From NCBI GenBank assembly GCA_964353135.1, contig CAYGTV010000001.1, positions 309,497 to 373,496 on the forward strand: a stretch of 64,000 nucleotides of DNA, in the 5' to 3' direction. The DNA comes from an uncultured Candidatus Saccharibacteria bacterium (GTDB lineage Bacteria > Patescibacteriota > Minisyncoccia > Phycocordibacterales > UBA918). The position numbers were made by a program, and so were the translations under genes. Positions 9,686 to 62,934 of the stretch are shown here, piece after piece; the first letter of the stretch is position 1, and every line of letters begins with the position of its first letter. The notes beneath the pieces are model-generated. The model was not told where the DNA came from. It saw only the letters and a list, made by a program, of their open reading frames with translations, and searched no databases.

Positions 9686-9687
9686 TA

Positions 9688-11265
9688 CTAGTTGATTTGA
9701 TCAGTACCAAGATACACAGTGATTGGTGCTTCAGACGCGTCATCAGAAATAAAGGACGACAAGAGAGCATCAGCGAAATATTCTTGCAAACGGACTGCTG
9801 ATTCAGCGTAGCTTGGATTGTAAACAATAACAGTTCGATCCTCACTAACATCAGTGTCCGCGCGGTTCACCTGTACTTTGTATCCCTTACTCTCCAAATC
9901 TTGTGCTCGCAACTCATCAAGACCAGCGATTCCACTACGATTTACAATCGTAATCGCAGGCTGATCAATCACAGCTGTTGAATCTCCTTGCAACGGCGGT
10001 AGGTCGGCTTGATCAGGCAAAGCCACCATCGCTCCGTCTTGTTCGTAGCGCACTTCGTACCCATGCTCACTACTGAGAGCTAGTATCAAGTACCACGCAA
10101 ACAAACCAACAAAGATACATACTGCTAAAAGAACGATTAAAAATAGTCTATATTTCTGCACCAGGGGCAGAATACGCGAAATCAATGAACCTTCACCAGA
10201 GGTTAGTTCTGCTCGCAGATCCAAAATACCTTCTTCCAGAGGAGCGGTTACAGAGATAGTACGTTTTGAGCGATGATTCCCATTGTGTAATTCAGGAGTA
10301 ATTCCTGCCATCTGTAGCATTCTGCGAATATATAACTTAACTCCCCAAATGATAAGCCATAGTAGCCCACCAAAGACGAACATAAATAAGAGCAGCGTGC
10401 GCCAAGGAATAACCCAAAAAGAGGTCTCAGCGGTAACAAATTGTCTTGTTAAGTCACCGTAAGCGAGAGTTACTTCAGCTGTGTAGCGCCCCATATCAGC
10501 AAAAGACCAATCACCGACCCATTCGAAATTATATTTCCGGATACTGTTCGGAAGAACATTTCCGAATTGGGACGTTTGGTTAATTGGAATAGTGCCGCGC
10601 TCTCTACCCCACATATTTTTAATAGTAATATTTCCTTGGGGCTGAACGTGAACATTTCCTGCATTTTCAAACCTGATTGAGAATGCAGCTTTTGGTGATT
10701 CACTAACAAATTGTTCAGTAACGAAGTCACGAATCGAACCTCTTTCAACAATGTCACCGGCCACACTTAGAAACACCAATGCCGTCACAACTTGCGACGT
10801 TTCCACTTGCGCCGGCGTCTCTGAATTAGTTAGAGATCGTGTCCCTACAAGAATCGCTGAAAAATGACCACCTGGCGCCGCATCATCAGGAACATTGATT
10901 GAAAATGGTACCGAAACAGTCTGCTCAGCAGGAATAATAATTTCTTCTGTCGGTAACGTAAACCATTCGGCTAAGGTTGTGCCATTTGATTCAGTCTCTA
11001 AGACCGGAATCATAGTTCCCTGCCCAGACTCACCAGATGGTTCAAAATTGACCGCGTTAACATACACCTTCAAAGGGAATGGGTTGGTGTTGATGACTCG
11101 AACAGCACTAGACCAAGCCTGGCTTTTACTGGCAGACATTTCAAACAAAGTTGGTGATACACTCAGGGCAACCGAACCTTGCGCGACAGCAATAGTCGGA
11201 AACAGCCCAAGTAGTAATACCGCAGCCAGCGAAAGTCTTACTTTATTGAGTGAGGTCAATATCAT
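9688..11265 (-). CDS. Fusion protein: signal peptide + DUF916/DUF3324-like beta-rich surface domain + TM helix (KLYIRR) + second TM + C-terminal LytR_C (LCP C-terminal) domain.
   Basis: ATG verified at 11265..11263 (MILTSLNKVRLSLAAVLLLGLFPTIAVAQG). Family core: FSIRFENAGNVHVQPQGNITIKN...GRYTAEVTLAYGD...FWVIPWRTLLLFMFVFGGLLWLIIWGVKLYIRR. LytR_C-like tail: ITIVNRSGIAGLDELRAQDLESKGYKVQVNRADTDVSEDRTVIVYNPSYAESAVRLQEYFADAL...ITVYLGTDQIN. Overlaps the upstream gene by 23 nt. Confidence 0.7.
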   Translation of the reverse strand: MILTSLNKVRLSLAAVLLLGLFPTIAVAQGSVALSVSPTLFEMSASKSQAWSSAVRVINTNPFPLKVYVNAVNFEPSGESGQGTMIPVLETESNGTTLAEWFTLPTEEIIIPAEQTVSVPFSINVPDDAAPGGHFSAILVGTRSLTNSETPAQVETSQVVTALVFLSVAGDIVERGSIRDFVTEQFVSESPKAAFSIRFENAGNVHVQPQGNITIKNMWGRERGTIPINQTSQFGNVLPNSIRKYNFEWVGDWSFADMGRYTAEVTLAYGDLTRQFVTAETSFWVIPWRTLLLFMFVFGGLLWLIIWGVKLYIRRMLQMAGITPELHNGNHRSKRTISVTAPLEEGILDLRAELTSGEGSLISRILPLVQKYRLFLIVLLAVCIFVGLFAWYLILALSSEHGYEVRYEQDGAMVALPDQADLPPLQGDSTAVIDQPAITIVNRSGIAGLDELRAQDLESKGYKVQVNRADTDVSEDRTVIVYNPSYAESAVRLQEYFADALLSSFISDDASEAPITVYLGTDQIN

Positions 11266-12232
11266 GATCTTTTGGTTGAGGCTTATGGCCATCACGAATA
11301 AACAGCGGCACATCGTCGCCAGCTTCAGCAGATTGAACAAAGGTGCTACCGCGGCGCATGAGTAGAAACACTACTAACAACAGTACTGAGAGTAGTCCAA
11401 TAGCAATATAGAGATAGTACAGTGGGAGCATGTAAAATCCGGCAGAATCAAATAGATTAGCACGTTGGTTTGTGCCGTACACCAGGTTTGCGTTTGCCTT
11501 ATAACGTCCCACACTGGCACCCAGTGGAATGTTTGTTGTATATGTTTTAGTTTCAGAAGGTGCAATGGAAACACCTTCAGTGTTGAACGGTAGAGCTGAA
11601 ACTTCTTGACCACGATTATTATAAAAAATAATTTCGCCCGCGGGGGTAGACTCCAGTTCACCTGAATTTTCCACTGTAATTAGAAGCTGCTGCTGATCAC
11701 TGTTAGTAATAAATCGGTCTACAGTCATACTGCTAATTCGCATACTATCTACTCGCTCATCAGCAACAGTCACAGTAACAATAATCCCATCAGCTGCACC
11801 ACGCAGGGCCATCGCTTCTGCATCTTGACGTTTTTTCACTTCTGAAAATCCTACAAAAGCATGGTATACACCAGGCTCTGCGAAGGGGTGAATTTTGATG
11901 TTTAGGGGCAATTCAACCGTCTCATTGGCAGGCACTTCTATTCGTCCTCGAGTGATCTCTATCCAGCTGGTAATACTGTTGGTGCGATCTGACATTACTG
12001 ACGGAACAAACTCTAGAATCTCACCGGCGGTACCAACCGTGATTTCATTAACAGTAGCATATAAGATTGACGTCCTATCTGGATAGGTACTTTTTAAAAC
12101 TACCGTCTCGTCAGCTGCTTCTCGGGGAACCATCGTAACATCAATCAGGAACGGTCTAATGGTTACCTCGCTTGCTTGTGCAAAAGCGGGTAGAAAGAGT
12201 AACGTAAAAATGAGTGTCGATAGCAACTTCAT
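11243..12232 (-). CDS. DUF916/DUF3324-like surface protein: signal peptide, beta-rich ectodomain, single C-terminal TM helix followed by a basic tail. Paralog of 9688..11265, 27450..28394 and 63371..64000.
   Basis: MKLLSTLIFTLLFLPAFAQA signal. ...ITVENSGELESTPAGEIIFYNNRGQEV...GRYKANANLVYG...LPLYYLYIAIGLLSVLLLVVFLLMRRGS. Confidence 0.7.
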   Translation of the reverse strand: MKLLSTLIFTLLFLPAFAQASEVTIRPFLIDVTMVPREAADETVVLKSTYPDRTSILYATVNEITVGTAGEILEFVPSVMSDRTNSITSWIEITRGRIEVPANETVELPLNIKIHPFAEPGVYHAFVGFSEVKKRQDAEAMALRGAADGIIVTVTVADERVDSMRISSMTVDRFITNSDQQQLLITVENSGELESTPAGEIIFYNNRGQEVSALPFNTEGVSIAPSETKTYTTNIPLGASVGRYKANANLVYGTNQRANLFDSAGFYMLPLYYLYIAIGLLSVLLLVVFLLMRRGSTFVQSAEAGDDVPLFIRDGHKPQPKDHDIDLTQ

Positions 12233-12248
12233 ATAGTAATCATACCAT

Positions 12249-15200
12249 CTAAAAGACCGGTGTAGCGATGTACGTTATGTTGGCAATGTAATCACCTTGC
12301 GCCTGATCTTCGGTGACTTTAATTCTGTATACAACGTCGTGTGCCTCATCTACTGGTATAGAGCTATACATCACTTCTGACACGGTCGTATCAAACGCTG
12401 CATACGTGTCTGTAGCTGCAAACCGAGGTGAACCACCTGCTAACGTAGCGTCTGTCGTATGGTATCCAACGCAACTTGCAGCCAGTGCCGTGCAAACTGT
12501 CGACCAACCTCCTGGCGAGGCATTAGTAGAAGCAATGGGTAAAATTTCTGATCCACCACCGTTTGTCAGCTGCTGTCCAGCTAACTTCCATACCTGATAC
12601 CCTTCAACTGCGTTAGTGTCTACTGACAACCTCTGAGCTGCGATAACATCAGTTCCAAATGGAAGCACACCAAAATCCACTGAGGTAGCCGTGGTTGTGA
12701 CACCAGTTGTAACACCAGCTGTTGATGTGGCGGCTGGTAGACCCTCTATGGTAAATACCAAACGTGCACTTTCGGCGACTGCTGCTGGATAGCTTGCGGT
12801 GCTAAATAAAGCTACCGGCTTAGCAGACGCGACGTCAAACAAGCGGAAGTAATATACTGCACTGGATCGTAGCCTTTGGGACTGAATTGTAAATGAATAC
12901 TCTTGTGCAGCTAGAGCCGGGTGGTCATGACCTGCTACATAGTCAGCAGAGCTATTGTGGGTACCACAACCACCGCCACCAGCAGCCACACAAGTGTCCG
13001 AGATCCCTGTGATTGCTGTGGTAATAGTAGCGTTATTGGCACCACCACCGTCTATGTAGCACCACTCATTACTGATCGTACATGAAGATGAGGCTACAAC
13101 ATCTATCGGATTACTGAATGTAATCTCATCAGAAAACTGTAGTTTGAACTTAACGTTTTCGCCAGTCACACTTTTTTGTTCGTCTAGCACTACTCGTAAT
13201 GCCAATGTGTCTTGTGAGATGATCTCGGTCGGTGCTGAATTGAGCGCTTCTAGGGGTGTAGACGGAGTCTCATTTTGTATATCGTCGTACCATCTCCACC
13301 CAATCACTTCTGGTGTAAAATCAGCGGTGCGAAGTTGCGGGTATTGCAAATAGCCAGACAAAGCGCTACCGTCAGACTCAACAACCCGAAAACAATATAC
13401 GGTGTCTGCGGCGGCGCCATTGTGCTCTAGGTACCAGTCGTACTCAACATCCTCGCCATCAAAGGCAATATAGGTGTTTGTTGCTGACTGGTTTTGATGC
13501 TCGAGTGACCCAGCTACATCAGATACCGAGATCAACAGGTCACCTGGAGTCGGTGGATCACCAGAGAGCACGGTACCGTCAGTCGTACCAGTGGCAGCAT
13601 ACCCTCGCCAGATTTCACCAGATCCAGCCTGACCAACATCAGTCCATGAACCAATGGCTGTACAAGTGCTCACTCGCTCGGCATACTGCAGTTTAAACGC
13701 ATAAAAATCAGCTGGCCAGTTAGCGTTTTTTGCCCGTAGTGTCATTCGTAGACGCAGAATTTCACCTACTCCGGGTGGATCGTCAAACTCAGTGATGGAG
13801 GTGTTCTCTCCTAGATCCTCTAAGCCCGCTGGCCAGGCATCATCTGGAGTTAACTGGTTGTTGCCTGTATAAAACCGATAGTAATTTTGTCGGATCGCTA
13901 AATCAGCAACCGGCCACTGAACAATTTCTGCTCGATACTGCAATTGAGTTCCAGTATCACTTCGCCAAAGTTCGTACCGTAATGGATTAACGATCCGTAG
14001 ACCGGCAATTGCTCGCGGGTGAGCGTTGTTGTTTCCGTTGGCTGATGAGTTTCCAAAAATCGAACTGTTATTGATTGCGTCCAATGCATTGACAATTACC
14101 AAAGAGAGGGTTGTAGGTTCCGCCCCTCCTATAGTAGTTCCATTTTGCCTTTCAACCCGCATCGCACCAGCACCAGCCTGTAAATTTTCGATCACCCACG
14201 CAACAGACGTGTGGACTACTCCCATATTTGCAGCCGCGTTTAACTCAAAAGAAACTGCTCCGATACTTGATAAGTAAACTTGGTGACCAAGGGTAGCCAC
14301 TGTCGTTTGCGCTCCAACTCTTTTTTGAGAATGAATGAATGCCTGATCAAGTGAGGTGACCGGGGTTATAGTTTCGGTCTCTATGACGCCGGCTGCTGTG
14401 TATGTGTGCTCAACTCGTTGAATATTCCAGTTTATACCGGTGTATTCCACTACTGCATAGCTGATATTAATATTTGAACCTCCAGTAGCTTCTCGCGTAA
14501 ATACCGGTCGGTTATTAGCACCATCCCAATCCGCGGTAACTTGAGCCGCATAAAAATCGTTTGCAGCATCGTCTCCGGACACGCCAGTTACAAACACCAC
14601 AACATCGGCATCATCTGTAACTGAAACTGCGGGTCCTGAGATAGTCACTTGTCCAGTATTCATACTCACTGTATTGGCATCTCGAACCAACATTTCATTA
14701 TCTGTGTTTGGTTGGGCTATGAACTCTATAATCTCCCAGTCAACATACGTATCAGCAACAACAGCGTTACGAGCAAAGGTAATGCTGGATACAATATTGT
14801 CAGGATTCTGCACATAAGCAGTCACACCAAGCACGTCCTGGGATCCACCACCGGTAGTATTACCAGCCCCAGTATTGTTGGTATTTGTAATACGAATAAA
14901 CGCCAAACTCGAGGAAGCTGGGGCTGTATAATCCACTCCAGCTGTGATTGTTTGCGTAGTACCAGTTAGGACACTATTACCTTGCTGCACCTTGAAATCT
15001 CGCTTGGCTGCAATGCTAACCTCGGGATACTGATCATACTGATTGATGTCGATTCCTTGTCTTGATAGGCGAAAACAGTACGTAGTATTAAACGCAGACG
15101 CAACGGTAGAGGTGAGGCTAAACTCAAATTCAGCAAATTCTAACTCCGTGATAGTTGTGCTCGCTGTTGCACTACTGGTTTCCCGAATACCACTATTTGG

Positions 15201-18200
15201 ATTTATTAGCGATACATTCTCATCTGCAACTCCACCATCTACCTCTGGTATGTTTGTCACATCAGCACCGTGTACGAGGTTTGTTGAATCGTACATATCC
15301 CACGCATCACCGAGCTCCGCATTGACATCTGTCCACACGGCGATCGCCGAACAGCTTGTCACTCGTTCTGCGTATTCCAAATTAAACACCCGCTCAACTG
15401 ACGTTGTGGCGCCCTCGTTACTTACCTGCATGCGTAACCTGATAGGAGTTGCAATTTGGTGGTCGGGTAAGAGTGTGTCCTGTGAACCTGCAGTTGCAGA
15501 TGTGGCACCAGTTTCTGAACCATCATCGTTACGCCAGTGGTAGTGCGTCTGAGTAAGGATGGCACCCTGCAAGGTTGTGACGCCACCAAGCTCAACCGGT
15601 GTAGATGGTGAAACTGATGCTCCAGGGACAATAACGTCACTATTGGCTGACAGGATTGCGAAGCTCACTGTGTCACCATTTAGCGCCGCATCGGTAACAT
15701 CAGCTACTACATACACACACATGGCTTGGGTGGTTAGAATCGTGACACTACCACTAAACGTAGAGCTACCGTTTATATCGCTCATACCATCTGTATCAGT
15801 ACTACCAAACTGTGGCTCTAGTCCACTGTATGTTTCACTGACACAGTTATACGGAGCTGTAGTATCTAAGTCATACAACAGGCGGATATTAGTTAATCCA
15901 GTAGTTGCATCAATAGACCCAGATTCAGCAATAGTTATATCGGTAACGGTATTGCTAGCTGTGTTTTCTCGAATCACAAATGCCCCACCAAAATATAAAT
16001 CGGCTGAAGGAATATCCACTGTGGCTTGCTGTGTACCAGTCTGAGAGACTGTTACTTCTGCGTTGATTGTGGCTTGTGCATACACATCGTATGCATTAAG
16101 ATCAGCCCCACTATTTGAAAGTCTAAAGCAGTAAGTTGCTCCCTCTGTTGCACTAGTTGAAGCAACCAGCGAAAACTCTAGCTCAAGGAATTCGTTGGTT
16201 GCTAGTGTAATCGACCCTGTAGTGTCAGTTGAGTCTCGCACCCCTGCGTTTGGTGTTTTAAAAACGGCATTTTCATCTGTCACTCCTCCAATTCCGTTAG
16301 CGATGTTAGTTGTGTCAGAACCTTCGGTTAGGTTAACCGTTGGCTGCATGTTGAACTGATCATCGGCAGCTCCGACGGCTGTCCACACCGTCACATCAGT
16401 ACAGGTTGGAGCCGCTTCTGCGAACTCTAGTTGATAGATAATTGGGCTAGAACTGGTTGAACCCTCTACTGAGACACCCATCCTAAGTCTAGTAGTTTGC
16501 CCAATCGGTAACGCTCCACGCGGAGTATCTTGGTTTCCAGCCGTCGCTGAAGTAGCACCAGCTTCTGAACCATCGTCGTTTCGCCAGTGATAGTGAGTTT
16601 GGGTTACGTCGGGACTGATTACAGTGGTCGTGTCAGTCAGGGTAACCGGGAAATTTGGTGCAATGTCAGACCCAGTAACTACCACGTCATTTGGTGGGTC
16701 TGTGATTTCGATTTCGATAGTTTGACCATCCCCTGCACTGCTGGTGATATCGGTCACGACATAGAGACAAATTGCTTGGGTCGGACCGACACCGACTGAA
16801 CTACCAGTAAACAATATCTGACCATCTGCGGCATCAAATCCATCGGTATCGGTGCTGCCAAATTGTGATTCACCACCACTATAGGACTCACTAGCGCAAT
16901 TATATGGTGCAGATGAGTCCAAATCATACAGCAGCCGTACATTAGCAAACGCTGTCGAACCATCAACCGTTCCATTTTCACGTATTGTAATATCTGACAC
17001 AGTGTTTGATGTCAAACTGTTGATCACAAATTGTCCACCAATGTAGTTGTTAGTAGTTTCTGACCTCAGCGTTGCAACCTGAGTACCCAGCGTCGACAGG
17101 TTAGAATCAGGACCAATGTTAGCGAGAGTTTCTCCAAATCTGTCGCTGACAGACCCCTCCCACCAGGCTACATACAAACGGTCATAGTTACTAGGATCCA
17201 ACGCTGGTTTTCTGATGTCACCTGGCGTGGTATTTAACGGACCAGTTTCAGTTCCCCAACTTGTCATAGCATCAGTTGATTCCTTGAAATATATATTTCC
17301 CGTACCGGCAGAACCCGGTGTATCCTGTACTGCGTATGCAACATACACGTCACCATTATTTTGATCAATCGCTATGGCTGTATCTAAAATCCCCCGACCA
17401 GTAATGTTTGTTACGACATCAGTCATAAGCGTCCACACCGAGCCGTCGTAAATCGCTGTTCTGACGTCGTCGTTATTATCAGTCAACAAGTTGTTATCAG
17501 CAACATAGGCAAAGTAGATGTTGTTGGTACTTAGATCAACCGTAGCTGACATAGCACCATCGTATTCACTGTTTTCTGGAGCGTTGTTATCGATGGATGT
17601 CCAGGTACCAGACCAAGTGGAACCATTCCAGACTTTTGAGCGGACTTCATTAGCAGAAATGTCTTGGTTAATCAGTAGCACATTGCCACCAGCTAGCGGC
17701 ATAAGCAGGTTGTGGTCGTTTCGTGCATCCAAGGGTGAGGTTCCCACTTCGATCCAGTTAGTTCCAGTCCCACAGGAAGCAGCGCAAGACACGACGTACG
17801 AATCAGAGTTGTCGTTACTGGTCAGATAAATGTCACCATCGGTCGCTTTTGTGATTGCGTGCGTGTTGATTGCGTCAGTGAATGTTGGAGTTTGTCCCGA
17901 GCTTACGGTCGCATTTACTGGCGAACTACCAAGGAGTAATGTGTCAGTCGACGTATCAAGGGCATTATAAAATAAATCATCATCAGACGTATCCATTGTT
18001 GCGATATGAATTGTGGATCCACTGTCACCAGGGGTCCAACGGTCGTACCACACGACAATGCGGATACAGTCAGTTTGGGCGTCAATAGTAACTGCAGCTG
18101 TCCATGTGCTTCCGGCGTCGGTGGTTTTACTATAAACACACGAGCCAGGACTATCTTGGTAAAAGGTATACCCTACTGTGTCCGAAATAAATACAGTTTG

Positions 18201-18392
18201 CGCACCGGTATGGTTGTTTCCTCGAGCAGACCCGTTTGCTGTACTATCAATCACCACCACGGCAGCATCAGCTATTTGAGGTGAAAATAGTCGGGAAAAA
18301 GTTGTTACCCCAAGTAAATCAAACAACAAAACTATCAGCAGAAAACTACTGAGTAATGTGCGTACATGAGTAAAATTGCGCAGTTGTTTCAT
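12249..18392 (-). CDS. Giant secreted or surface protein (2047 aa). It carries two ~340-aa internal repeat modules containing 'THYHWRNDDGSE.GATSATAG.QDT', and a conserved C-terminal domain ending ...VVYRIKVTEDQAQGDYIANITYIATPVF.
   Basis: 6.1-kb ORF with an N-terminal hydrophobic segment (LLSSFLLIVLLFDLLGVTTF). The C-terminal ~180 aa are homologous to the C-terminus of the 24604..25743 protein. Confidence 0.85.
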   Translation of the reverse strand: MKQLRNFTHVRTLLSSFLLIVLLFDLLGVTTFSRLFSPQIADAAVVVIDSTANGSARGNNHTGAQTVFISDTVGYTFYQDSPGSCVYSKTTDAGSTWTAAVTIDAQTDCIRIVVWYDRWTPGDSGSTIHIATMDTSDDDLFYNALDTSTDTLLLGSSPVNATVSSGQTPTFTDAINTHAITKATDGDIYLTSNDNSDSYVVSCAASCGTGTNWIEVGTSPLDARNDHNLLMPLAGGNVLLINQDISANEVRSKVWNGSTWSGTWTSIDNNAPENSEYDGAMSATVDLSTNNIYFAYVADNNLLTDNNDDVRTAIYDGSVWTLMTDVVTNITGRGILDTAIAIDQNNGDVYVAYAVQDTPGSAGTGNIYFKESTDAMTSWGTETGPLNTTPGDIRKPALDPSNYDRLYVAWWEGSVSDRFGETLANIGPDSNLSTLGTQVATLRSETTNNYIGGQFVINSLTSNTVSDITIRENGTVDGSTAFANVRLLYDLDSSAPYNCASESYSGGESQFGSTDTDGFDAADGQILFTGSSVGVGPTQAICLYVVTDITSSAGDGQTIEIEITDPPNDVVVTGSDIAPNFPVTLTDTTTVISPDVTQTHYHWRNDDGSEAGATSATAGNQDTPRGALPIGQTTRLRMGVSVEGSTSSSPIIYQLEFAEAAPTCTDVTVWTAVGAADDQFNMQPTVNLTEGSDTTNIANGIGGVTDENAVFKTPNAGVRDSTDTTGSITLATNEFLELEFSLVASTSATEGATYCFRLSNSGADLNAYDVYAQATINAEVTVSQTGTQQATVDIPSADLYFGGAFVIRENTASNTVTDITIAESGSIDATTGLTNIRLLYDLDTTAPYNCVSETYSGLEPQFGSTDTDGMSDINGSSTFSGSVTILTTQAMCVYVVADVTDAALNGDTVSFAILSANSDVIVPGASVSPSTPVELGGVTTLQGAILTQTHYHWRNDDGSETGATSATAGSQDTLLPDHQIATPIRLRMQVSNEGATTSVERVFNLEYAERVTSCSAIAVWTDVNAELGDAWDMYDSTNLVHGADVTNIPEVDGGVADENVSLINPNSGIRETSSATASTTITELEFAEFEFSLTSTVASAFNTTYCFRLSRQGIDINQYDQYPEVSIAAKRDFKVQQGNSVLTGTTQTITAGVDYTAPASSSLAFIRITNTNNTGAGNTTGGGSQDVLGVTAYVQNPDNIVSSITFARNAVVADTYVDWEIIEFIAQPNTDNEMLVRDANTVSMNTGQVTISGPAVSVTDDADVVVFVTGVSGDDAANDFYAAQVTADWDGANNRPVFTREATGGSNINISYAVVEYTGINWNIQRVEHTYTAAGVIETETITPVTSLDQAFIHSQKRVGAQTTVATLGHQVYLSSIGAVSFELNAAANMGVVHTSVAWVIENLQAGAGAMRVERQNGTTIGGAEPTTLSLVIVNALDAINNSSIFGNSSANGNNNAHPRAIAGLRIVNPLRYELWRSDTGTQLQYRAEIVQWPVADLAIRQNYYRFYTGNNQLTPDDAWPAGLEDLGENTSITEFDDPPGVGEILRLRMTLRAKNANWPADFYAFKLQYAERVSTCTAIGSWTDVGQAGSGEIWRGYAATGTTDGTVLSGDPPTPGDLLISVSDVAGSLEHQNQSATNTYIAFDGEDVEYDWYLEHNGAAADTVYCFRVVESDGSALSGYLQYPQLRTADFTPEVIGWRWYDDIQNETPSTPLEALNSAPTEIISQDTLALRVVLDEQKSVTGENVKFKLQFSDEITFSNPIDVVASSSCTISNEWCYIDGGGANNATITTAITGISDTCVAAGGGGCGTHNSSADYVAGHDHPALAAQEYSFTIQSQRLRSSAVYYFRLFDVASAKPVALFSTASYPAAVAESARLVFTIEGLPAATSTAGVTTGVTTTATSVDFGVLPFGTDVIAAQRLSVDTNAVEGYQVWKLAGQQLTNGGGSEILPIASTNASPGGWSTVCTALAASCVGYHTTDATLAGGSPRFAATDTYAAFDTTVSEVMYSSIPVDEAHDVVYRIKVTEDQAQGDYIANITYIATPVF
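14950..17050 (-). repeat. Two diverged tandem ~1.05-kb intragenic repeat units inside the 2047-aa gene.
   Basis: Compare gcaccagcttctgaaccatcgtcgtttcgccagtgatagtg (~16557-16597) with gcaccagtttctgaaccatcatcgttacgccagtggtagtg (~15500-15545). Both encode ...DDGSEAGATS/THYHWR in the translation. Confidence 0.5.
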
Positions 18393-21702: not shown

Positions 21703-23454
21703 TTAGCTATCTTTGGTTAATGATGTGACGTCTTTGATTTCCTTCTCTACTGCCTTTTGTGAGGCTTCAAGTGAAGCACCAAACACTGCTAGTGTATCAG
21801 CTTCAGCTTTTGTAAGCTTGTTAGTTTTGCGTGATGCCATAAGCAGTGCTCGTTGTTCTGCAACTGTCTGGTGTAGTGAGGTGAATTCACGCTGCAGAAT
21901 AGTCAACGCTTCGTTTGATTCTACTCCTACCACACCTCTAAATCGACGGTATACAAATAGCATGTACCAGACACCAAACACCAACAATAGAGACAACAGT
22001 ATAAGAGGTACGATGACTGACATTGCATTTACAACTTGTGTTCCGATCCTAATGTAGCCAGGTTCTTGGACAGCGATCCGATACACCTCAGATATTTCTG
22101 ATTGGGCTCCAAACTGATCGGTTGCACGCGCTGATAATTCATATACCCCAGTATATAACGACCCATCGGGGATGAAGGTGAACGTTCCAATTTCGTCACT
22201 TACAGTCTCATATACGTTTTGCTCACTACCAACTCGATTAAAGAAAATTTGTACAGCGGAATTTGGTCTAGTTGAACCTGTAATTACTGGTACAACATTT
22301 ACACTCATGTCAGTTGGAACATCCACAAATACTGGTCGTTCAAAGGACTCAATTGTAAATGAGAAGGTCCCAATGACACTATTGCCAGCGCGATCAAATG
22401 CCTCTACGATCACTGTGTGATAGCCAGGTTCAAGAGCCTCGAGTGTATGCGTTGTTGCCCCAGCTTCGGGTACATACTCATAAGGCTCATTGGCATCAAC
22501 CTTGATTAAATACTTTTCGATACCAGAAGTTTCCTCATCAATTTCAAATTGCAGAGTTTTTGCTGGATTTGATGGATCCGAGCTAGTGGCCAAACTTATT
22601 TTAAAGTTTGTCGGCACTAGAGTATCTACCCCCAGTCGATAGTGCTGTACACCACCCCAACCGTCTGAGTTCTGGAATTGTAAATGGAAATACGACACCC
22701 CTTCCTCTAAATCAGCCAGAGTAATAGAGCTGATAGGGTTCTCATAAACGCGTGTTGGTATACTAGAAGGACTGCTGTTTAAAAGCGTACGCACTGAAGT
22801 GACACCAGCTGGCAGCGTCCACGATAGTTCTGCAGTAGTTTGGTTTGACCAACCATCTGGATTTGGGTGGGTTGTTGACTGAATGTTAGGTGTCGCAGGT
22901 GTATTTGCTGACGGCACATACTCTACAATTACTTCAGGTGCTGGAGCCTCTGTTGCCGCACTAACAGTATATGAACCACCATTCATAGAGGTGAGGATGT
23001 TAGTTCCTCTACCGTCATTAGCTAAAACGGAACCATTAGAAAAAGACACTTGTGATGCCCCAGCCCCTTTGGTTCTAAAAGTTACTGTCACAATTCGTCC
23101 AACTGAGCCTGCAAACCCACTTGGTACTCCGCCGCTAAACGTCACAGTTCCAGCTGAATTCGAAAAGGCCGGTTCAGCTGTCCAAAGATTAAAAATTGAG
23201 CTATTTCTATTGACTGCCACTACAGACAGTTGGTTTGGATTGAATTTAAGTGTACCCTCTGCAGCGTTAACCGACTCTCCGTTGGTGCGAATTTGTACAT
23301 CGACAGAAAATGTTGCTCCAGCTTGGTAGACACCAGTGCTTGGCGATACTTGCATGACCGCCGCTTGAGCAAAACCAACAAAGCACATCCACAGCGCTAG
23401 AACAAAAATGGTTTTAAACAATGTTTGTGGAGTAATAAAGCAAGATTTAGTCAT
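21703..23454 (-). CDS. Surface protein: signal peptide, cohesin-like N-terminal domain, Ig-like middle region, C-terminal TM helix and cytoplasmic coiled-coil tail.
   Basis: ATG verified at 23454..23452 (MTKSCFITPQTLFKTIFVLALWMCFVGFAQAA). Cohesin-like: VSPSTGVYQAGATFSVDVQIRTNGESVNAAEGTLKFNPNQLSVVAVNRNSSIFNLWTAEP...TVTFRTKGAGASQVSF. TM: VIVPLILLSLLLVFGVWYMLFVYRRF. Paralog of 58916..60448. Confidence 0.7.
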   Translation of the reverse strand: MTKSCFITPQTLFKTIFVLALWMCFVGFAQAAVMQVSPSTGVYQAGATFSVDVQIRTNGESVNAAEGTLKFNPNQLSVVAVNRNSSIFNLWTAEPAFSNSAGTVTFSGGVPSGFAGSVGRIVTVTFRTKGAGASQVSFSNGSVLANDGRGTNILTSMNGGSYTVSAATEAPAPEVIVEYVPSANTPATPNIQSTTHPNPDGWSNQTTAELSWTLPAGVTSVRTLLNSSPSSIPTRVYENPISSITLADLEEGVSYFHLQFQNSDGWGGVQHYRLGVDTLVPTNFKISLATSSDPSNPAKTLQFEIDEETSGIEKYLIKVDANEPYEYVPEAGATTHTLEALEPGYHTVIVEAFDRAGNSVIGTFSFTIESFERPVFVDVPTDMSVNVVPVITGSTRPNSAVQIFFNRVGSEQNVYETVSDEIGTFTFIPDGSLYTGVYELSARATDQFGAQSEISEVYRIAVQEPGYIRIGTQVVNAMSVIVPLILLSLLLVFGVWYMLFVYRRFRGVVGVESNEALTILQREFTSLHQTVAEQRALLMASRKTNKLTKAEADTLAVFGASLEASQKAVEKEIKDVTSLTKDS

Positions 23455-24499
23455 GATGAATTTGGGTGTAATTAGCCTCAATTGCCTCTATCTCTGCCTG
23501 ACGTTTTAGGATTGATCGTCGGCGCACAATGAACCACGCACCAACTGCAGCCAGCAGCACCAACATTACAAATAGGACATATGATAAGAATTGTTCAAAC
23601 GAAAGTGTGCGTAGTTCAGCGTCTGGAACCAGAGTTGCAATGTATTCATTACCAGCTTTATCAATCGCACGTACACGGATGATGCTGTTGAGGGACTGAT
23701 CCTCAAGCACATATGGGCTTCTGGCCTCTACCCATGATACGTTTGCTCGACCCCAGATAAACGCGTCAAATTGAGTGAGGGATTCTTCCCGTACTTCATA
23801 GCGATCAATTCCTGTTTGCTTGTCAGTTGTAGTAAACGCTATGTAGTATTTACCAGCAAAGGCTAAGGCGTCCTTTTCCAACTGCAAGCTAAACGGCTGA
23901 GGTGGGACGGTATCAGCATCGATTTCTTCAGTCCATGGATCCTGGGTAATTGCTCCTAACTCTGGTAGAACTGTTATTTTGTTTGGAAACAATTCTAGGT
24001 CGGCTTCTGTTCCAAAACCGTCGTTTAGGTATGCTACGGTTTGCGAAGTAAATTGAACTGAGGCTTCGACAGTTTGACCGTCTTGTGCCAGTACAGAATC
24101 AGCCCTTATAATGACATCAAACAAGTTATTGGTCAGACGTGGATCACCTTCAATCCGTCCACAGTATCCATTTGGAATCCCACCGGCAAACGTGACCTGG
24201 GTTTTATCCTCGTTCAAAGCGGGTGTTTCAACCCAAATGCTAAAAATAGAGTCACCAAGCGACACATCGACAGGCTCAATCGGTCCACTAAAGGTTAAGA
24301 CCCCTTGGACAGCATTAACGCACTCCTCTAACTCTTCGTTTGTGTCTAGTCTAACACTTACCTTGAGGGCATCTCCGCGGGCAATTGTAGTTACACCCGG
24401 ATCAAGGTACAACGAGGCTGCTTGGCCGGCACTAGGAAAAAGTAAAACCAGAAGAAAAAATATCCCCACGGAACGTTTCATATAAATGTAGTATATCAA
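23447..24499 (-). CDS. Surface protein: signal peptide, cohesin-like domain, C-terminal TM anchor + basic tail.
   Basis: MKRSVGIFFLLVLLFPSAGQAASLYLDPGVTTIARGDALKVSVRLDTNEELEECVNAVQGVLTFSGP... C-terminal LSYVLFVMLVLLAAVGAWFIVRRRS. Its last 8 nt overlap the downstream gene's start. Confidence 0.7.
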   Translation of the reverse strand: MIYYIYMKRSVGIFFLLVLLFPSAGQAASLYLDPGVTTIARGDALKVSVRLDTNEELEECVNAVQGVLTFSGPIEPVDVSLGDSIFSIWVETPALNEDKTQVTFAGGIPNGYCGRIEGDPRLTNNLFDVIIRADSVLAQDGQTVEASVQFTSQTVAYLNDGFGTEADLELFPNKITVLPELGAITQDPWTEEIDADTVPPQPFSLQLEKDALAFAGKYYIAFTTTDKQTGIDRYEVREESLTQFDAFIWGRANVSWVEARSPYVLEDQSLNSIIRVRAIDKAGNEYIATLVPDAELRTLSFEQFLSYVLFVMLVLLAAVGAWFIVRRRSILKRQAEIEAIEANYTQIHHD

Positions 24500-24530: not shown

Positions 24531-24555
24531 AACAAAAAACCCACCTCGTGGTGGG
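24531..24555 (-). terminator. Rho-independent terminator downstream of the 24604..25743 gene.
   Basis: Minus-strand transcript: hairpin CCCACC-ACGA-GGUGGG (24555-24540) followed immediately by UUUUUUGUUUGUGU (24539-24526). Confidence 0.5.
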
Positions 24556-24603
24556 AGATAGGGTCTTTTGTGTTATAACTCCAAGCTTAGAGTCCAGTTT
24601 CGA

Positions 24604-25743
24604 TTAGAAAACTGGGGTTGCTACGTATGTCAGCGTAGCAGTGTAATCGTCAGCAGCTTCCTGAAGAGAAGTCACTTCGATTTTGTACAGCACCTCAGCA
24701 GTTCCTTCTCCAGGATTGGTCGCATCTGCTGGACCATCATGTCGAAAGACTTCTACTGGTGTAGTTGAGGCAGAAACAAAGTTTACTCCCCCACTGTACA
24801 GATCTGACAGACCAGCTGTCAGCGTATCATCACTAGATGTTAGTGCCCAGTGACCAGCTTCATTTTCAGCTCCAAGAGAACCACTAGGTGATGCCCAAGG
24901 TGCAGGTGTCGATGTAAAGTCACCGTCGGCGAATCCATCGATATCTGCTCCGTTTGAAGATGTTAGCTGTTGATCTGCAGCAACTGTTACAACAAAGCCG
25001 TTTGCGGCGTTAGTTGAAACTGTTAGTGATTGCGCTGCAGTTGTTGCGTTGTCTGCTACCAGTTCACCGAAAGGAATTTCAGTGGCTGTAGACGTTTTAC
25101 CAACTGGATCTGATCCAATGGTTGTCACATCACCTCCAGCAATACCAGATACCGTAAAGGTAAAGATGGTATCAACTGTGGCAGTGACGGTAACAGCGTC
25201 AACGATTGCTACTCGAGTTTCACCAGAGTCAACTGATCCCGCAGTAACATTGATTTCGTAAGAAATCCCGGCTGTTGCTGGATTAGTGATCTGGTTTACA
25301 CCACTATCAGCGTTTAGACCGATCTGGATGATAACTTCCTGTCCTGCTCCAACTGTACCTGTACCGGAGGTAAAGGTAATGCCGGTTGCAGAGGTTGTTG
25401 CTCCCCAGGTTGCACCAGACGGTGCAGCTGCCAGAGTTACATCTGACCCATTGATGTTGAGATCGAGATCTCCTTCATCTAGAGCAGCGATTCCTGTGAA
25501 AGCGGCATCAAACGTAAGTGTGATGGTTTCACCAGCAGCTACTCCGGTTGGAGTAACAAATTCGATTGTGTGATCTGACACAACACTCGGTGCTGAGTCA
25601 GTCAACGTGTTGCTAAAAGTAGTGACATTTGCCGCCTGCGCGAATTGCAGGGTTGGAAAGCCAAGTGACCACATAATGATCGCAAGACTTGCAACTAAGG
25701 CGGTTGCTTGGAGTACAGAGAACGCATAGTTATTGCGTGACAT
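24604..25743 (-). CDS. Secreted 379-aa T/S/G-rich surface protein whose C-terminal ~180 aa are homologous to the C-terminus of the 2047-aa protein (ends ...VLYKIEVTSLQEAADDYTATLTYVATPVF).
   Basis: Signal anchor: MSRNNYAFSVLQATALVASLAIIMWSLGFPTLQFAQAA. Its N-terminal region (TFSNTLTDSAPSVVSDHTIEF) resembles the N-terminus of the 60993..62885 protein (QFSDTLSDSGPNEQSNHTMRF). Confidence 0.75.
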   Translation of the reverse strand: MSRNNYAFSVLQATALVASLAIIMWSLGFPTLQFAQAANVTTFSNTLTDSAPSVVSDHTIEFVTPTGVAAGETITLTFDAAFTGIAALDEGDLDLNINGSDVTLAAAPSGATWGATTSATGITFTSGTGTVGAGQEVIIQIGLNADSGVNQITNPATAGISYEINVTAGSVDSGETRVAIVDAVTVTATVDTIFTFTVSGIAGGDVTTIGSDPVGKTSTATEIPFGELVADNATTAAQSLTVSTNAANGFVVTVAADQQLTSSNGADIDGFADGDFTSTPAPWASPSGSLGAENEAGHWALTSSDDTLTAGLSDLYSGGVNFVSASTTPVEVFRHDGPADATNPGEGTAEVLYKIEVTSLQEAADDYTATLTYVATPVF

Positions 25744-27449: not shown

Positions 27450-28394
27450 TTACCCTAACCGCTTACGTCTCATAAAGAGGAAGTACAGCACAGCAATCAA
27501 CAATGCAAAGATCGGTAGAAGTAGCGAGACCTTGTGAGCTATAGACAACCCTGCAAAGCCAAATCCTGCAGCTTGGACGGTACCATATGGCTGCACACTA
27601 AGAGTAAGGTCGCCTTCTTGCTTTAAATCGTCACCGTTAAACACACGATAGCGTGCAATGTAGCTTCCAGCCGGCAGCCTAGTTGGCAGTTCAGCAGTTA
27701 CTGTATCTGTATCGTATGGTGAGACTTTTGCTATTTTACCTATGTTTTGCACTTCTTCGAGCAGAGCTTGGCCTGAGCGATCAAATATCCTAAATTCAAC
27801 TCGTGACGGAGAAATGTCAACGTTACCAGTATTTTCAATCAGCATATCAAACCGGATTTTACCTGGGAAAAACAACCAACCAAATTTAGTTCCTTCATTG
27901 AGTTCAGCAACCGAGATTTTTCTAACCCTGAAGTCTTCTATCTGCCTATCAATAACAGTCAAGGCAATGTCTACACGAGCACCAAGCGAGATGTTAACTG
28001 AACCACGAGCGATGTCTTCATTCGCTGGCAGAGTTCTAATACGGATCGAACCAGTATATTCTTTGAATTCAGCGTCAGCTGGTACAAGCACACGTACGGT
28101 CATAGGAACTTTCTGTAGTCCTGAGGGTAGCTGTATCGGTGTTCCTTCAACAATCTCAAGCCATCCAGCTAGCTCCGGAGCGTCGATGACTATCTCCGCT
28201 TGCTGAGGAGCGGTTGGATCGCTACGAACCAAAAGAATCTGTTGTTCGTAGATTGAATTTCGTGTAAGGCTAGTATTCTTTACGTAGGGCGGTGTAATAC
28301 CAAATCCGGCGTGCACCTTAGCTACCCCCAGGCTCGCAAAGAGAACAGGTACAAGACAAAAAAGCACTAGGAACGTACGGAGTAACCCATTCAT
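27450..28394 (-). CDS. DUF916/DUF3324-like surface protein paralog: signal peptide, beta-rich ectodomain, C-terminal TM + RRKR tail.
   Basis: MNGLLRTFLVLFCLVPVLFASLGVAKVHA. ...FDMLIENTGNVDISPSRVEFRIFDRSG...GSYIARYRVFNGD...VSLLLPIFALLIAVLYFLFMRRKRLG. Its stop lies 3 nt before the next gene's start. Confidence 0.7.
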   Translation of the reverse strand: MNGLLRTFLVLFCLVPVLFASLGVAKVHAGFGITPPYVKNTSLTRNSIYEQQILLVRSDPTAPQQAEIVIDAPELAGWLEIVEGTPIQLPSGLQKVPMTVRVLVPADAEFKEYTGSIRIRTLPANEDIARGSVNISLGARVDIALTVIDRQIEDFRVRKISVAELNEGTKFGWLFFPGKIRFDMLIENTGNVDISPSRVEFRIFDRSGQALLEEVQNIGKIAKVSPYDTDTVTAELPTRLPAGSYIARYRVFNGDDLKQEGDLTLSVQPYGTVQAAGFGFAGLSIAHKVSLLLPIFALLIAVLYFLFMRRKRLG

Positions 28395-31728: not shown

Positions 31729-31729
31729 A

Positions 31730-33052: not shown

Positions 33053-33053
33053 A

Positions 33054-62885: not shown

Positions 62886-62934
62886 AGCACTATTGTACTG
62901 CACAGTCTGGATGTTTTTTGCTTGATTCCACGGT

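What the first reader, a model, noticed from the sequence alone, without database searches (positions are those of the whole stretch)
12249..12850. Conserved C-terminal domain type 2 shared by the 2047-aa and 379-aa proteins, ending in an invariant ...TY(I/V)ATPVF
The last ~180 aa of 12249-18392 and of 24604-25743 align throughout (FTI.G...TS..FG.L......AAQ.L.V.TNA..G..V....QQLT..GG... ; VVYRIKVTEDQAQGDYIANITYIATPVF vs VLYKIEVTSLQEAADDYTATLTYVATPVF). The proteins are otherwise unrelated in size and repeat content. This pattern is expected for a sorting or docking module.
Basis: seen in the sequence. Interest (0 to 1): 0.6.

Follow-up and report, generated by a model that had tools for sequence, protein, structure and literature searches.

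The report
Pilus-subunit joining domain on two proteins
The shared C-terminal domain is most likely the joining module of a recently described pilus of ultra-small (CPR) bacteria, carried here by a small shaft subunit and a giant adhesin-like protein, so it is a divergent variant of a known system rather than a new kind of signal.

Summary
The last ~170-186 aa of the 2047-aa and 379-aa proteins align at 34% identity (BLASTP E=1e-16). Both end in ATPVF, and nothing else in the two proteins, or in their DNA, is similar.

The domain is not private to this pair. A profile finds 2101 cluster representatives. It lies within 4 residues of the C-terminus in all but one listed hit, on proteins of 146 to 5226 aa.

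Its only family match is NCBIfam NF058581, the Pam pilus pilin C-terminal domain (E=2.2e-9, full model length). The score of 37.5 bits is below the 55-bit naming cut-off. A confident AlphaFold model (pLDDT 92) has chaperone-usher pilins as most of its top matches among solved structures, at weak scores.

The 379-aa protein models as a two-domain pilin. Its gene lay near a membrane-anchored two-domain partner gene in 54 of 54 related genomes with enough flank.

I read the domain as a donor-strand polymerisation and docking module. The 379-aa protein would be the major pilin. The 2047-aa protein would be a pilin orthologue with a hugely expanded N-terminus. The partner proteins are distantly DUF916/WxLIP-like.

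A weak, colinear profile similarity to WxL domains (P=0.0055) is suggestive, not proven.

The parts
12252..12761 (-). C-terminal domain (aa 1878-2047) of the 2047-aa protein. Pam-type pilin C-terminal domain, 'big-type', with a conserved Cys pair and a GYH motif.
   Evidence: BLASTP against the small protein. NF058581 E=2.2e-9 over profile positions 2-148 of 148. AF2 pLDDT 92.3. Foldseek matches to chaperone-usher pilins.
12249..18392 (-). Whole 2047-aa gene. Signal-peptide-like N-terminus; a region with an Asp-box-like motif (aa ~45-435); duplicated A/B beta modules (436-598, 599-785, 786-944, 949-1129, 1539-1687); then the C-terminal domain. Candidate giant adhesin subunit.
   Evidence: No Pfam family matches. 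Same length and position in a Nomurabacteria genome. Its C-terminal domain type sits on 441-466-aa proteins in compact loci.
24607..25164 (-). C-terminal domain (aa 194-379) of the 379-aa protein, 'small-type', with a GHW motif and no Cys.
   Evidence: 41 of 48 family members hit NF058581.
25144..25218 (-). Linker (aa 176-200, TRVAIVDAVTVTATVDTIFTFTVSG). An alternating-hydrophobic strand that is highly conserved; candidate donor strand.
   Evidence: Invariant I180, V184, V186, A188, V190, F196. Conservation 0.83 against 0.69 for the N-terminal domain. Residues 186-189 have pLDDT below 50 in the monomer model.
24604..25743 (-). Whole 379-aa gene: candidate major pilin. Signal peptide aa 1-37, N-terminal beta-sandwich aa 38-175, linker, then C-terminal domain.
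   Evidence: AF2 model, pLDDT 82. More than 1652 homologues at 59-86% identity among those listed. 78 species-representative genomes.
11243..12232 (-). 329-aa protein with a signal peptide, about 245 aa of beta-rich ectodomain, a C-terminal TM helix and a short tail. Candidate membrane-anchored chaperone (PamC/D-like, DUF916/WxLIP-like).
   Evidence: Its family lies next to the pilin gene in 54 of 54 loci.
9688..11265 (-). Paralogue of the 329-aa protein (525 aa from the ATG at 11265), with a second TM segment and a C-terminal LytR_C domain.
   Evidence: BLASTP E=3e-19 against the 329-aa protein. LytR_C and a weak WxLIP_PGBD hit. tblastn hits to DUF916 proteins.
27450..28394 (-). 314-aa third paralogue (signal peptide, beta-rich ectodomain, C-terminal TM), upstream of the pilin gene.
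   Evidence: BLASTP E=2e-8 against the 329-aa protein. Equivalent 317-aa gene in L001.
23447..24499 (-). 350-aa protein with a signal peptide, beta domains and a C-terminal TM, directly downstream of the pilin gene. A speculative candidate for a membrane anchor or terminator.
   Evidence: Conserved position in L001 and L002. No direct evidence of the role.
24540..24562 (-). Terminator-like hairpin plus T-run just after the pilin stop codon. A second lies at 26298-26319 upstream, and promoter-like hexamers at 25819-25865.
   Evidence: Counts are not above the shuffled expectation, so this is only consistent with a separate, strongly expressed pilin transcript.

Best explanation
The shared C-terminal ~170-185 aa is a divergent member of the Pam-pilus pilin C-terminal domain. 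This is an incomplete Ig-like, open-barrel fold of the kind found in chaperone-usher pilins.

Proposed mechanism:
- Both proteins are exported by Sec.
- Their C-terminal domains are held by membrane-anchored two-domain partner proteins (the 329-, 550- and 314-aa paralogues).
- The domains are then joined head-to-tail when a strand from the next subunit fills the domain's groove (donor-strand exchange).
- The 379-aa protein is the major two-domain shaft pilin.
- The 2047-aa protein is the orthologue of a second pilin class. Its N-terminal part has been expanded into a giant adhesin-like array, and the same domain plugs it into the filament.

Shown here:
- Homology of the two domains to each other.
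- Significant similarity to the Pam pilin C-terminal profile.
- A pilin-like predicted fold.
- C-terminal position of the domain in nearly all listed relatives.
- Tight genetic linkage to the partner family.

Inferred, not shown:
- Donor-strand exchange itself.
- The chaperone role of the partners.
- The position of the 2047-aa protein in the filament (tip or shaft).
For: Pairwise homology at E=1e-16.

NF058581 'Pam pilus system pilin subunit' is the only family hit:
- Big domain E=2.2e-9 over profile positions 2-148 of 148.
- 26 of 26 big-type relatives, best 6.6e-11.
- 41 of 48 small-type relatives.
- Full-length matches in divergent loci.
- About 25 other window proteins gave no such hit.

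The AF2 model of the domain has pLDDT 92.3 and pTM 0.81. Most of its top 50 Foldseek PDB matches are chaperone-usher pilins (CfaB, FimA, FimG, the PapG pilin domain, PapA, CsuA/B), with the donor-strand TasA fibre among them. Unrelated glycoside hydrolase, adhesin and lectin chains also appear in the list. The Pam paper reports the same resemblance for PamA/B.

The 379-aa model has an N-terminal beta-sandwich of about nine to ten strands, a low-confidence conserved linker, and the C-terminal domain. That matches the PamB layout and size.

The C-terminal strand (0.99) and the linker (0.87) are among the most conserved blocks.

Of the 150 listed profile hits, all but one end within 4 residues of the C-terminus. 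Among the 148 whose sequences were held, 48 are of pilin size (330-480 aa) and 65 are at least 1000 aa.

A partner-family gene lies on the same strand near the pilin in 54 of 54 loci. Compact operons read C-terminal-domain protein, partner, partner, pilin, partner.

The big-type domain is carried by 441-466-aa proteins in some genomes and by proteins of 853, at least 1655, and 2047 aa in others.
Against: All NF058581 scores (18-37 bits here, at most ~38 in relatives) are below NCBI's 55-bit cut-off.

The solved PamA/B structures and sequences were not in the libraries I could search, so no direct comparison was possible.

Foldseek E-values are weak (2e-3 to 7e-2, TM 0.3-0.5).

The partner proteins hit no Pam, PapD or other chaperone model, and their structure was not predicted.

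No multimer prediction was possible, so strand exchange is untested.

It is unclear whether the conserved LxFTVxG strand is the donated strand folded back on itself in the monomer models, or an integral strand of the domain.

The Pam paper places Pam pilins mainly in Saccharimonadia and Microgenomatia, not in Paceibacteria.
Confidence: 0.68

Rival explanations
1. The domain is a WxL-type cell-wall docking domain. It binds peptidoglycan non-covalently, and a membrane-anchored WxLIP-like partner (DUF916-type) stabilises it. A small and a large surface protein are thereby displayed as a complex, without polymerising into a pilus.
For: The cluster layout matches published WxL clusters: a small and a large protein sharing a C-terminal domain, plus a partner with a signal peptide, two Ig-like domains and a TM helix.

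Partner-level evidence:
- The 550-aa partner finds DUF916-annotated proteins by tblastn, 8 of 14 hits.
- WxLIP_PGBD is hit below threshold by 10 of 38 family members.
- The partner-family HMM scores a Streptomyces DUF916 protein at 20.3 bits.

Domain-level evidence:
- hhalign of the domain profile against 11 WxL domains gives a colinear, near full-length alignment, P=0.0055.
- That score (24.6) is above 60 of 60 block-shuffled controls, whose maximum was 23.2.
- It is also above 60 of 60 column-shuffled controls.
Against: No Pfam WxL hit in any of 44 members. The two Trp-x-Leu motifs are absent; the aligned positions read G-[YF]-x-V and T-Y-[IV]-A. hhalign probability is only 6.6%. Pairwise alignment is no better than shuffles. 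The partner-family HMM does not detect Firmicute WxLIPs directly. The only significant family hit of the domain is to a pilin whose filament structure is solved. The two readings may also not be exclusive, since WxL proteins could themselves work by strand insertion.
Confidence: 0.17
2. The domain is a C-terminal sorting or secretion signal, in the manner of T9SS C-terminal domains or PEP-CTERM/LPXTG tags. A dedicated export or attachment machine, perhaps the neighbouring MacB-type ABC transporter, recognises it and may remove it.
For: The domain is at or within a few residues of the C-terminus on cargo of very different size. A MacB-like ABC transporter is conserved in the same cluster.
Against: At about 170 aa the domain is far larger than known sorting tags. 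It has no terminal TM helix or basic tail and no LPXTG or PEP motif. It makes up half of the highly conserved, abundant-type 379-aa protein, which would leave little cargo. Both proteins already carry Sec-type signal peptides. Its only family match is a structural pilin domain.
Confidence: 0.05
3. The similarity is a recent partial gene duplication, or compositional chance between two Thr/Ser/Ala-rich beta proteins, with no modular function.
For: Both proteins are rich in T, S, A and G, and both lie in one gene cluster.
Against: BLASTP with composition adjustment gives E=1e-16. The DNA is not similar. The two domain subtypes are each conserved as separate orthologous lines across divergent genomes. 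The profile finds 2101 representatives.
Confidence: 0.01

Closest known systems
Pam pili of CPR bacteria (PamA/PamB pilins of Ca. Mycosynbacter amalyticus; bioRxiv 10.64898/2026.03.03.709456; NCBIfam NF058581 CPR_Pam_pilin_C)
   Same: The domain's only significant family match. The 379-aa protein has the same layout (signal peptide, N-terminal beta-sandwich, linker strand, C-terminal pilin-like domain) and a size close to PamB. There are two pilin classes per locus. Genes for membrane-anchored two-domain partners are interleaved with the pilin genes. The host is a CPR bacterium.
   Different: Scores are below the curated cut-off. The lineage is Paceibacteria (Kaiserbacteria/Nomurabacteria-type), not Saccharimonadia or Microgenomatia. 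The small pilin has no cysteines, whereas PamA/B have 2-3 pairs. One 'pilin' has about 1830 extra N-terminal residues, and relatives reach 5226 aa. No PamT- or PamR-like protein was recognised. The neighbourhood holds cohesin/dockerin proteins and a MacB-type transporter rather than ATP synthase genes. Partner proteins gave no Pam or PapD signal by sequence.
WxL gene clusters of Firmicutes (small WxL, large WxL and WxLIP = DUF916 + DUF3324 + TM helix; PMC9772566, PMC10599100)
   Same: Same cluster layout and partner architecture and size (WxLIP 337-365 aa against 314-329 aa here). In both, the shared domain sits at the C-terminus of a small and a large protein. A partner strand is predicted to insert into the WxL domain. 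There are distant sequence links at the partner level, and a weak colinear profile similarity at the domain level.
   Different: No Pfam WxL match and no Trp-x-Leu pair. The small protein here has an extra N-terminal domain, whereas mature small WxL proteins are the domain alone. WxL proteins are described as peptidoglycan-bound, not filamentous. The phylum differs.
Chaperone-usher pili and their two-domain adhesins (FimH, PapG, CupB6)
   Same: Closest solved folds for the domain. The design principle is shared: a receptor-binding N-terminal part fused to a C-terminal pilin domain that plugs into the fibre. Both have a conserved amphipathic C-terminal strand that ends the protein.
   Different: No outer membrane and no usher. 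The presumed donor strand would be internal (a linker), not an N-terminal extension. The partner proteins are membrane-anchored. The adhesin part is about ten times larger.
TasA fibres of Bacillus subtilis
   Same: A monoderm, usher-less fibre built by donor-strand complementation. It ranks sixth in the Foldseek list.
   Different: A single-domain subunit with an N-terminal donor strand. No sequence relationship was detected.

Membership tests
Pam pilus pilin C-terminal domain (NCBIfam NF058581) | Score at or above the curated cut-off (55 bits) | tested here: not met
   37.5 bits for the 2047-aa domain and 18.4-25.2 bits for the 379-aa protein. Divergent loci score 27-34 bits.
Pam pilus pilin C-terminal domain (NCBIfam NF058581) | Statistically significant, full-length similarity to the profile | tested here: met
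   E=2.2e-9 over positions 2-148 of 148. 26 of 26 big-type relatives, best 6.6e-11, and 41 of 48 small-type relatives. Other window proteins give no hit.
Pam pilus pilins (PamA/PamB type) | [quoted passage not shown] | tested here: met
   The AF2 model of the 379-aa protein has strands 43-180, a low-confidence linker 181-193, and the C-terminal domain 194-379. The signal peptide was read from the sequence. The 2047-aa protein meets only the signal-peptide and C-terminal-domain parts.
Pam pilus pilins (PamA/PamB type) | C-terminal domain fold like chaperone-usher pilin domains | tested here: met
Pam pilus system | Subunits joined by donor-strand exchange (linker of one pilin in the C-terminal groove of the next) | not testable with these tools
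   Only single-chain prediction was offered and no coordinates are returned. PDB 25PZ and 25QA were not in the held libraries.
Pam pilus system | Operon encodes PapD/FimC-like chaperones with a C-terminal TM helix (PamC/PamD) | tested here: inconclusive
   Three paralogues have a signal peptide, a beta-rich ectodomain and a C-terminal TM, linked to the pilin in 54 of 54 loci.
Pam pilus system | Restricted to CPR/Patescibacteria | tested here: met
   The 78 genome loci are almost all Patescibacteria MAGs. Two carry other titles on short contigs.
WxL domain (Pfam PF13731) | Match to the Pfam WxL model | tested here: not met
   No hit at E<=10 for either window domain or for any of 44 family members.
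WxL domain | Two conserved Trp-x-Leu motifs | tested here: not met
   In the hhalign alignment the motif positions are G-[YF]-x-V and T-Y-[IV]-A. The small family has one unrelated W-[AG]-L in its GHW motif.
WxL domain | Profile-profile homology to WxL domains | tested here: inconclusive
   hhalign P=0.0055, probability 6.6%, colinear over almost the full length. The score of 24.6 compares with block-shuffled 17.8+-1.8 (0 of 60 reach it) and reversed 10.2. Pairwise alignment is not above shuffles.
WxL gene cluster | Adjacent genes for at least two proteins with the shared C-terminal domain (small and large) and at least one WxLIP (DUF916 + DUF3324 + TM) | tested here: inconclusive
   The layout is met. 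The partner's DUF916 relationship is only sub-threshold: WxLIP_PGBD 16.6 bits against a 27.3 cut-off, in 10 of 38 members; tblastn hits to DUF916 proteins; 20.3 bits to a Streptomyces DUF916 protein.
Classical chaperone-usher pilus | Outer-membrane usher and periplasmic PapD-family chaperone | tested here: not met
   No Usher or PapD Pfam hit among the window proteins scanned. The partners are membrane-anchored.
C-terminal sorting tags (LPXTG, PEP-CTERM, T9SS CTD) | Terminal motif followed by a TM helix and basic tail, or an ~80-aa T9SS domain | tested here: not met
   Both proteins end ...TYIATPVF or ...TYVATPVF with no hydrophobic tail. No NCBIfam sorting-domain hit.

The most novel reading that the evidence does not exclude
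Pam pili of CPR bacteria and the WxL surface-protein clusters of Firmicutes and Actinobacteria would be one ancient monoderm system. On this reading:
- The C-terminal domain studied here bridges the two. The two WxL motifs correspond to its G[YF]xV and TY[IV]A strands.
- The DUF916/WxLIP-type membrane proteins are the strand-donating chaperones.
- The domain serves as a universal plug that loads interchangeable adhesins, from about 0.4 to more than 5 thousand residues, onto an usher-less fibre.

If so, WxL proteins of Enterococcus, Listeria and Lactobacillus are assembled by strand complementation and may form fibres, rather than simply sticking to peptidoglycan.
Probability: 0.25. Interest if true: 0.8.

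Novelty: new variant of a known kind. Interest (0 to 1): 0.55.

Why it matters
Most CPR bacteria are thought to live attached to host cells, and how they find and hold a host is largely unknown.

If this reading is right, the Pam pilus described in 2026 in one cultured Saccharibacterium has a divergent counterpart in Paceibacteria. The small pilin was found in 78 species-representative genomes, and the domain in about 2100 protein clusters. All listed relatives that carry a name in public sources are called 'hypothetical protein'.

The same joining domain also carries giant, fast-varying N-terminal arrays. These are the obvious candidates for host-recognition adhesins, so the finding gives a concrete list of proteins to test for host specificity.

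The possible link to WxL clusters would also give a structural model for a poorly understood family of Gram-positive adhesion and virulence proteins.

Tried and rejected
Sequence searches that found nothing useful:
- Searches of the PDB with both proteins and with the family profiles gave only chance hits.
- Pfam has no family for the domain.
- tblastn of the 379-aa protein against plasmids found nothing.

Structure searches:
- Foldseek with the whole 379-aa model gave only generic two-Ig-domain adhesins at TM ~0.2, so I searched with the domain alone.
- I prepared a fused two-copy pilin construct to probe strand exchange but did not submit it. The tool returns no contacts and accepts only native sequences, so I used the last job on the 2047-aa domain instead.

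Locus and context searches:
- The mixed alignment was too divergent for the genome scan, so I used the small-pilin alignment.
- P0001, the exact window protein, is not on record in the contig index, so the source genome was not identified beyond Paceibacteria-type relatives.

Partner proteins:
- NCBIfam scans of the window's partner-like proteins and of ten from divergent loci found no Pam, PapD or chaperone model.

WxL comparison:
- Direct HMM and pairwise comparison of the domain with a Pontibacillus WxL protein was not significant.
- Comparison with the Deinococcus neighbours of the partner homologue was not significant.

Promoter and terminator counts around the pilin gene are not above shuffled expectation.

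A recent duplication was rejected.
Full report
**1. The observation**

The window carries a long run of minus-strand genes. ORF 12249-18392 encodes 2047 aa and ORF 24604-25743 encodes 379 aa.

- BLASTP aligns aa 1878-2047 of the large protein with aa 194-379 of the small one. Identity is 34% over 186 columns, E=1e-16 with composition adjustment. Every other segment pair is at chance level.
- In window coordinates the domain is 12252-12761 and 24607-25164.
- The two coding regions and their 300-nt downstream flanks share no significant DNA similarity (best E=0.34).
- Profile searches of all six-frame ORFs find the domain in these two proteins only. The neighbouring 8058-aa ORF does not carry it.

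**2. The domain is a widespread C-terminal module, not a private duplication**

The 379-aa protein has more than 1652 relatives in the word-indexed search. The best 120 are 58-86% identical over the full length. The few named ones come from Kaiserbacteria and Nomurabacteria MAGs.

I built a profile from both subfamilies (alignment A3) and searched it against 1.84 billion cluster representatives. It found 2101 proteins at E<=1e-3 and 1295 at E<=1e-10.

- In all but one of the 150 listed hits the match ends within 4 residues of the protein's C-terminus.
- Of the 148 whose sequences were held, 48 are of pilin size (330-480 aa), 65 are at least 1000 aa, and the longest is 5226 aa.
- The terminal motif generalises to [TVI]-P-x-[FYH] at the C-terminus.

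**3. What the domain is related to**

Pfam (2025 copy) has no family for it, in the two window proteins or in any of 44 relatives. The only family match in any library is NCBIfam NF058581, 'CPR_Pam_pilin_C, Pam pilus system pilin subunit'.

- The large protein's domain matches at E=2.2e-9 and 37.5 bits over profile positions 2-148 of 148.
- All 26 relatives of the large-protein domain match, best 6.6e-11.
- 41 of 48 relatives of the small protein match, best 1.1e-7.
- Proteins from divergent loci match over the full model at 27-34 bits.
- None reaches NCBI's 55-bit naming cut-off. This is a distant sister group, not something PGAP would name.
- About 25 other window proteins, several equally Thr/Ser-rich, gave no such hit. 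Composition is therefore not the cause.

The family comes from a 2026 preprint.

- Cryo-EM of filaments from Ca. Mycosynbacter amalyticus identified two pilins, PamA (55 kDa) and PamB (38.7 kDa).
[quoted passage not shown] That barrel resembles the truncated Ig domain of chaperone-usher pilins and accepts the neighbour's linker strand.
- The operon also encodes PapD-like chaperones with a C-terminal transmembrane helix (PamC, PamD), a domain-only tip subunit (PamT), and a membrane anchor (PamR).

**4. Structure**

The domain of the large protein, modelled with alignment A3, gives pLDDT 92.3 and pTM 0.81. Most of its top Foldseek matches among solved structures are chaperone-usher pilins. They include CfaB, FimA, FimG, the pilin domain of PapG, PapA, CsuA/B and CS20. 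The donor-strand TasA fibre is also there. Unrelated glycoside hydrolase, adhesin and lectin chains also appear. Probabilities reach 0.99, but E-values are weak (2e-3 to 7e-2) and TM is 0.3-0.5. This is the resemblance reported for the Pam C-terminal domain.

The 379-aa protein models at pLDDT 82 with these parts:
- a signal peptide;
- a beta-sandwich over residues 43-180;
- a stretch 181-193 of low confidence;
- a C-terminal domain from 194.

Residues 184-198 (VTVTATVDTIFTFTV) place a hydrophobic residue at every second position, and many are invariant. The most conserved blocks of the family are the terminal strand (0.99), two core strands, the mature N-terminus, and this linker (0.87). The N-terminal domain averages 0.69. 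This parallels the Pam paper's statement that the donated linker and its binding site are the most conserved parts.

**5. Gene context**

Three paralogous proteins lie in the cluster: 329 aa (11243-12232), about 525 aa (9688-11265) and 314 aa (27450-28394). Each has a signal peptide, about 250 aa of beta-rich ectodomain and a C-terminal transmembrane helix. This is the PamC/PamD architecture.

In 78 species-representative genomes that carry the small pilin, a member of this partner family lies on the same strand near the pilin gene. This holds in all 54 loci with enough flank.

- The whole 13-gene order of the window recurs in a Nomurabacteria genome, including a protein of exactly 2047 aa.
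- In more divergent genomes the operon is compact: big-type domain protein, partner, partner, small-type pilin, partner.
- In those compact loci the big-type domain (Cys pair, GYH motif) sits on proteins of only 441-466 aa. In others it sits on proteins of 853, at least 1655, or 2047 aa.

The two domain subtypes are therefore two old orthologous pilin classes, as with PamA and PamB. The 2047-aa protein is the big-type pilin with a massively expanded N-terminus. That N-terminus holds an Asp-box-like motif near aa 88-97 and duplicated modules at 436-598/786-944 and at 599-785/949-1129/1539-1687. It also has 20 cysteines.

The pilin gene sits behind a 600-bp spacer and is bracketed by terminator-like hairpins. 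This fits a separately and strongly expressed subunit, but the counts are not above shuffled expectation.

**6. Most likely mechanism**

*Shown:* the two domains are homologous. They are significantly similar to the Pam pilin C-terminal profile. They are predicted to adopt a pilin-type fold. In nearly all listed relatives they end the protein. They are genetically tied to a membrane-anchored two-domain partner family.

*Inferred:*
- After Sec export the partner proteins cap the open domain.
- Subunits are then joined by strand exchange into a surface fibre.
- The 379-aa protein forms the shaft.
- The 2047-aa protein is inserted through the same domain and presents a large binding surface.

A strictly terminal, highly conserved amphipathic last strand also recalls the C-terminal strand of chaperone-usher subunits, which is needed for chaperone binding. 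That last point is established knowledge of Pap/Fim systems, not tested here.

*Unresolved:* the strand LxFTVxG is shared by both subtypes and modelled with high confidence against the domain. It could be the donated strand folded back on itself in monomer models, or an integral strand. In the first case the 2047-aa protein can both accept and donate, and could sit within the shaft. In the second case only the small pilin's upstream VTVTATV segment is the donor, and the giant protein is a tip-type acceptor like FimH, PapG or PamT. The big-type family does not conserve the alternating pattern upstream of LxFTVxG; a conserved Glu interrupts it. That mildly favours the tip reading.

**7. The WxL lead**

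By the formal tests the domain is not a WxL domain: there is no Pfam WxL hit and no Trp-x-Leu pair. The systems are nonetheless strikingly parallel.

Published WxL clusters hold a small and a large protein sharing a C-terminal WxL domain. They also hold WxLIP, which is DUF916 plus DUF3324, two Ig-like domains and a C-terminal TM helix. AlphaFold predicts that a WxLIP hairpin inserts into the WxL domain.

Evidence at the partner level:
- The 550-aa partner here gives a sub-threshold WxLIP_PGBD hit, as do 10 of 38 family members.
- By tblastn against 72,556 plasmids it finds 14 places. Eight are annotated DUF916 (Streptomyces, Clavibacter, Cellulosimicrobium, Pontibacillus). The best are Deinococcus proteins at E=3e-7.
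- The partner-family HMM scores the Deinococcus protein at 50.3 bits and a Streptomyces DUF916 protein of identical architecture at 20.3 bits. It does not detect Firmicute WxLIPs.

Evidence at the domain level:
- Pairwise alignment to a WxL protein is no better than shuffles.
- hhalign of the domain profile against 8 Firmicute WxL domains gives P=0.019.
- Against 11 WxL domains, including three actinobacterial ones, it gives P=0.0055 (probability 6.6%). The actinobacterial set itself links to the Firmicute set at 86% probability.
- That alignment is colinear over nearly the full length. The two WxL motifs fall on G[YF]xV and on the terminal TY[IV]A.
- The score of 24.6 exceeds the reversed control (10.2), 60 of 60 column-shuffled controls (11.4+-2.0), and 60 of 60 block-shuffled controls (17.8+-1.8, maximum 23.2).

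I regard this as suggestive, not established. The Pam preprint never mentions WxL. No paper in the searched library holds both 'WxL domain' and 'donor strand'. If the link is real, it appears not to have been reported in that library.

**8. Verdict**

The finding is real, and its interpretation as a docking module is right in substance. The domain is best filed as a divergent relative of the Pam pilin C-terminal domain, below the curated threshold.

It occurs in a Paceibacteria-type locus that differs from the described pam operon in four ways:
- a giant adhesin-sized subunit;
- partners that look DUF916-like;
- a cohesin/dockerin and MacB-transporter neighbourhood;
- no recognisable tip (PamT) or anchor (PamR) protein.

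It is a new variant of a known kind, of moderate interest. The higher-interest possibility that it bridges Pam pili and WxL systems remains open.

Noticed in passing
window 34656-58832 (-): A single 8058-aa ORF lies upstream in the same gene run. It does not carry the shared C-terminal domain.
   Followed up: partly
window 20256-21011, 21703-23481, 26346-27446, 58916-60448, 60993-62996 (all -): A cohesin/dockerin set is interleaved with the pilus genes. Cohesin hits fall on the 251-aa and 592-aa proteins, and the 592-aa protein is membrane-anchored with a coiled-coil tail. Dockerin hits fall on the 251-, 366- and 667-aa proteins. The 510-aa protein looks like the 592-aa one. This suggests a second, cellulosome-like docking system on the same surface.
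   Followed up: partly
window 30514-33103 (-); L001 2246-5065: A MacB/LolCE-type ABC transporter (ATPase plus permease) and an fn3-rich 532-aa protein are conserved in the same order next to the pilin cluster in a Nomurabacteria genome. Their role, if any, in export or assembly is unknown.
   Followed up: no
window 9129-9686 (-): A membrane-anchored ResA/TlpA-like thiol-disulfide oxidoreductase gene starts right after the stop codon of the 550-aa partner gene. The 2047-aa protein has 20 cysteines, including a conserved pair in the C-terminal domain. This hints at coupled disulfide formation.
   Followed up: no
window 9688-11265 (-): One of the three partner paralogues has a second TM segment and a C-terminal LytR_C domain (E=3e-8), which could tether it to the cell wall.
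   Followed up: no
L081 (Deinococcus sp. D7000 plasmid CP058536.1) 5978-11580: The closest non-CPR homologue of the partner family (50 bits) lacks a TM helix. It sits between two small secreted proteins and a 1018-aa protein, all annotated hypothetical. The layout resembles a chaperone-usher operon in a diderm. The small proteins end in ATLTYTL- and SYLFDVAFT-type strands, but no significant similarity to the domain was found.
   Followed up: partly
L082 (Streptomyces plasmid NZ_CP033582.1) 4777-6807; L088 6932-7576; L089 6990-7616: Actinobacterial DUF916 genes are flanked by proteins with a WxL-like C-terminal domain ending GDYxxTLTLTL. One is a 677-aa ORF with a C-terminal WxL-like domain that is missing from the PLSDB gene table. 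The others are 208-214-aa 'hypothetical' proteins. This set links to Firmicute WxL at hhalign probability 86%.
   Followed up: partly
window 18434-20149 (-): A 571-aa protein has an acidic low-complexity N-terminal half and a TolB-like beta-propeller. It lies directly upstream of the 2047-aa gene, and a 626-aa gene holds the same position in L001 and L002.
   Followed up: no
L053, L061: Two of the 78 genome loci carrying the small pilin come from MAGs titled Balneolia and Azotimanducaceae, on contigs of 4.8 and 14.9 kb. This is most likely binning contamination rather than occurrence outside CPR. Many other loci are titled 'uncultured Candidatus Saccharibacteria', and I did not verify those labels.
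   Followed up: no
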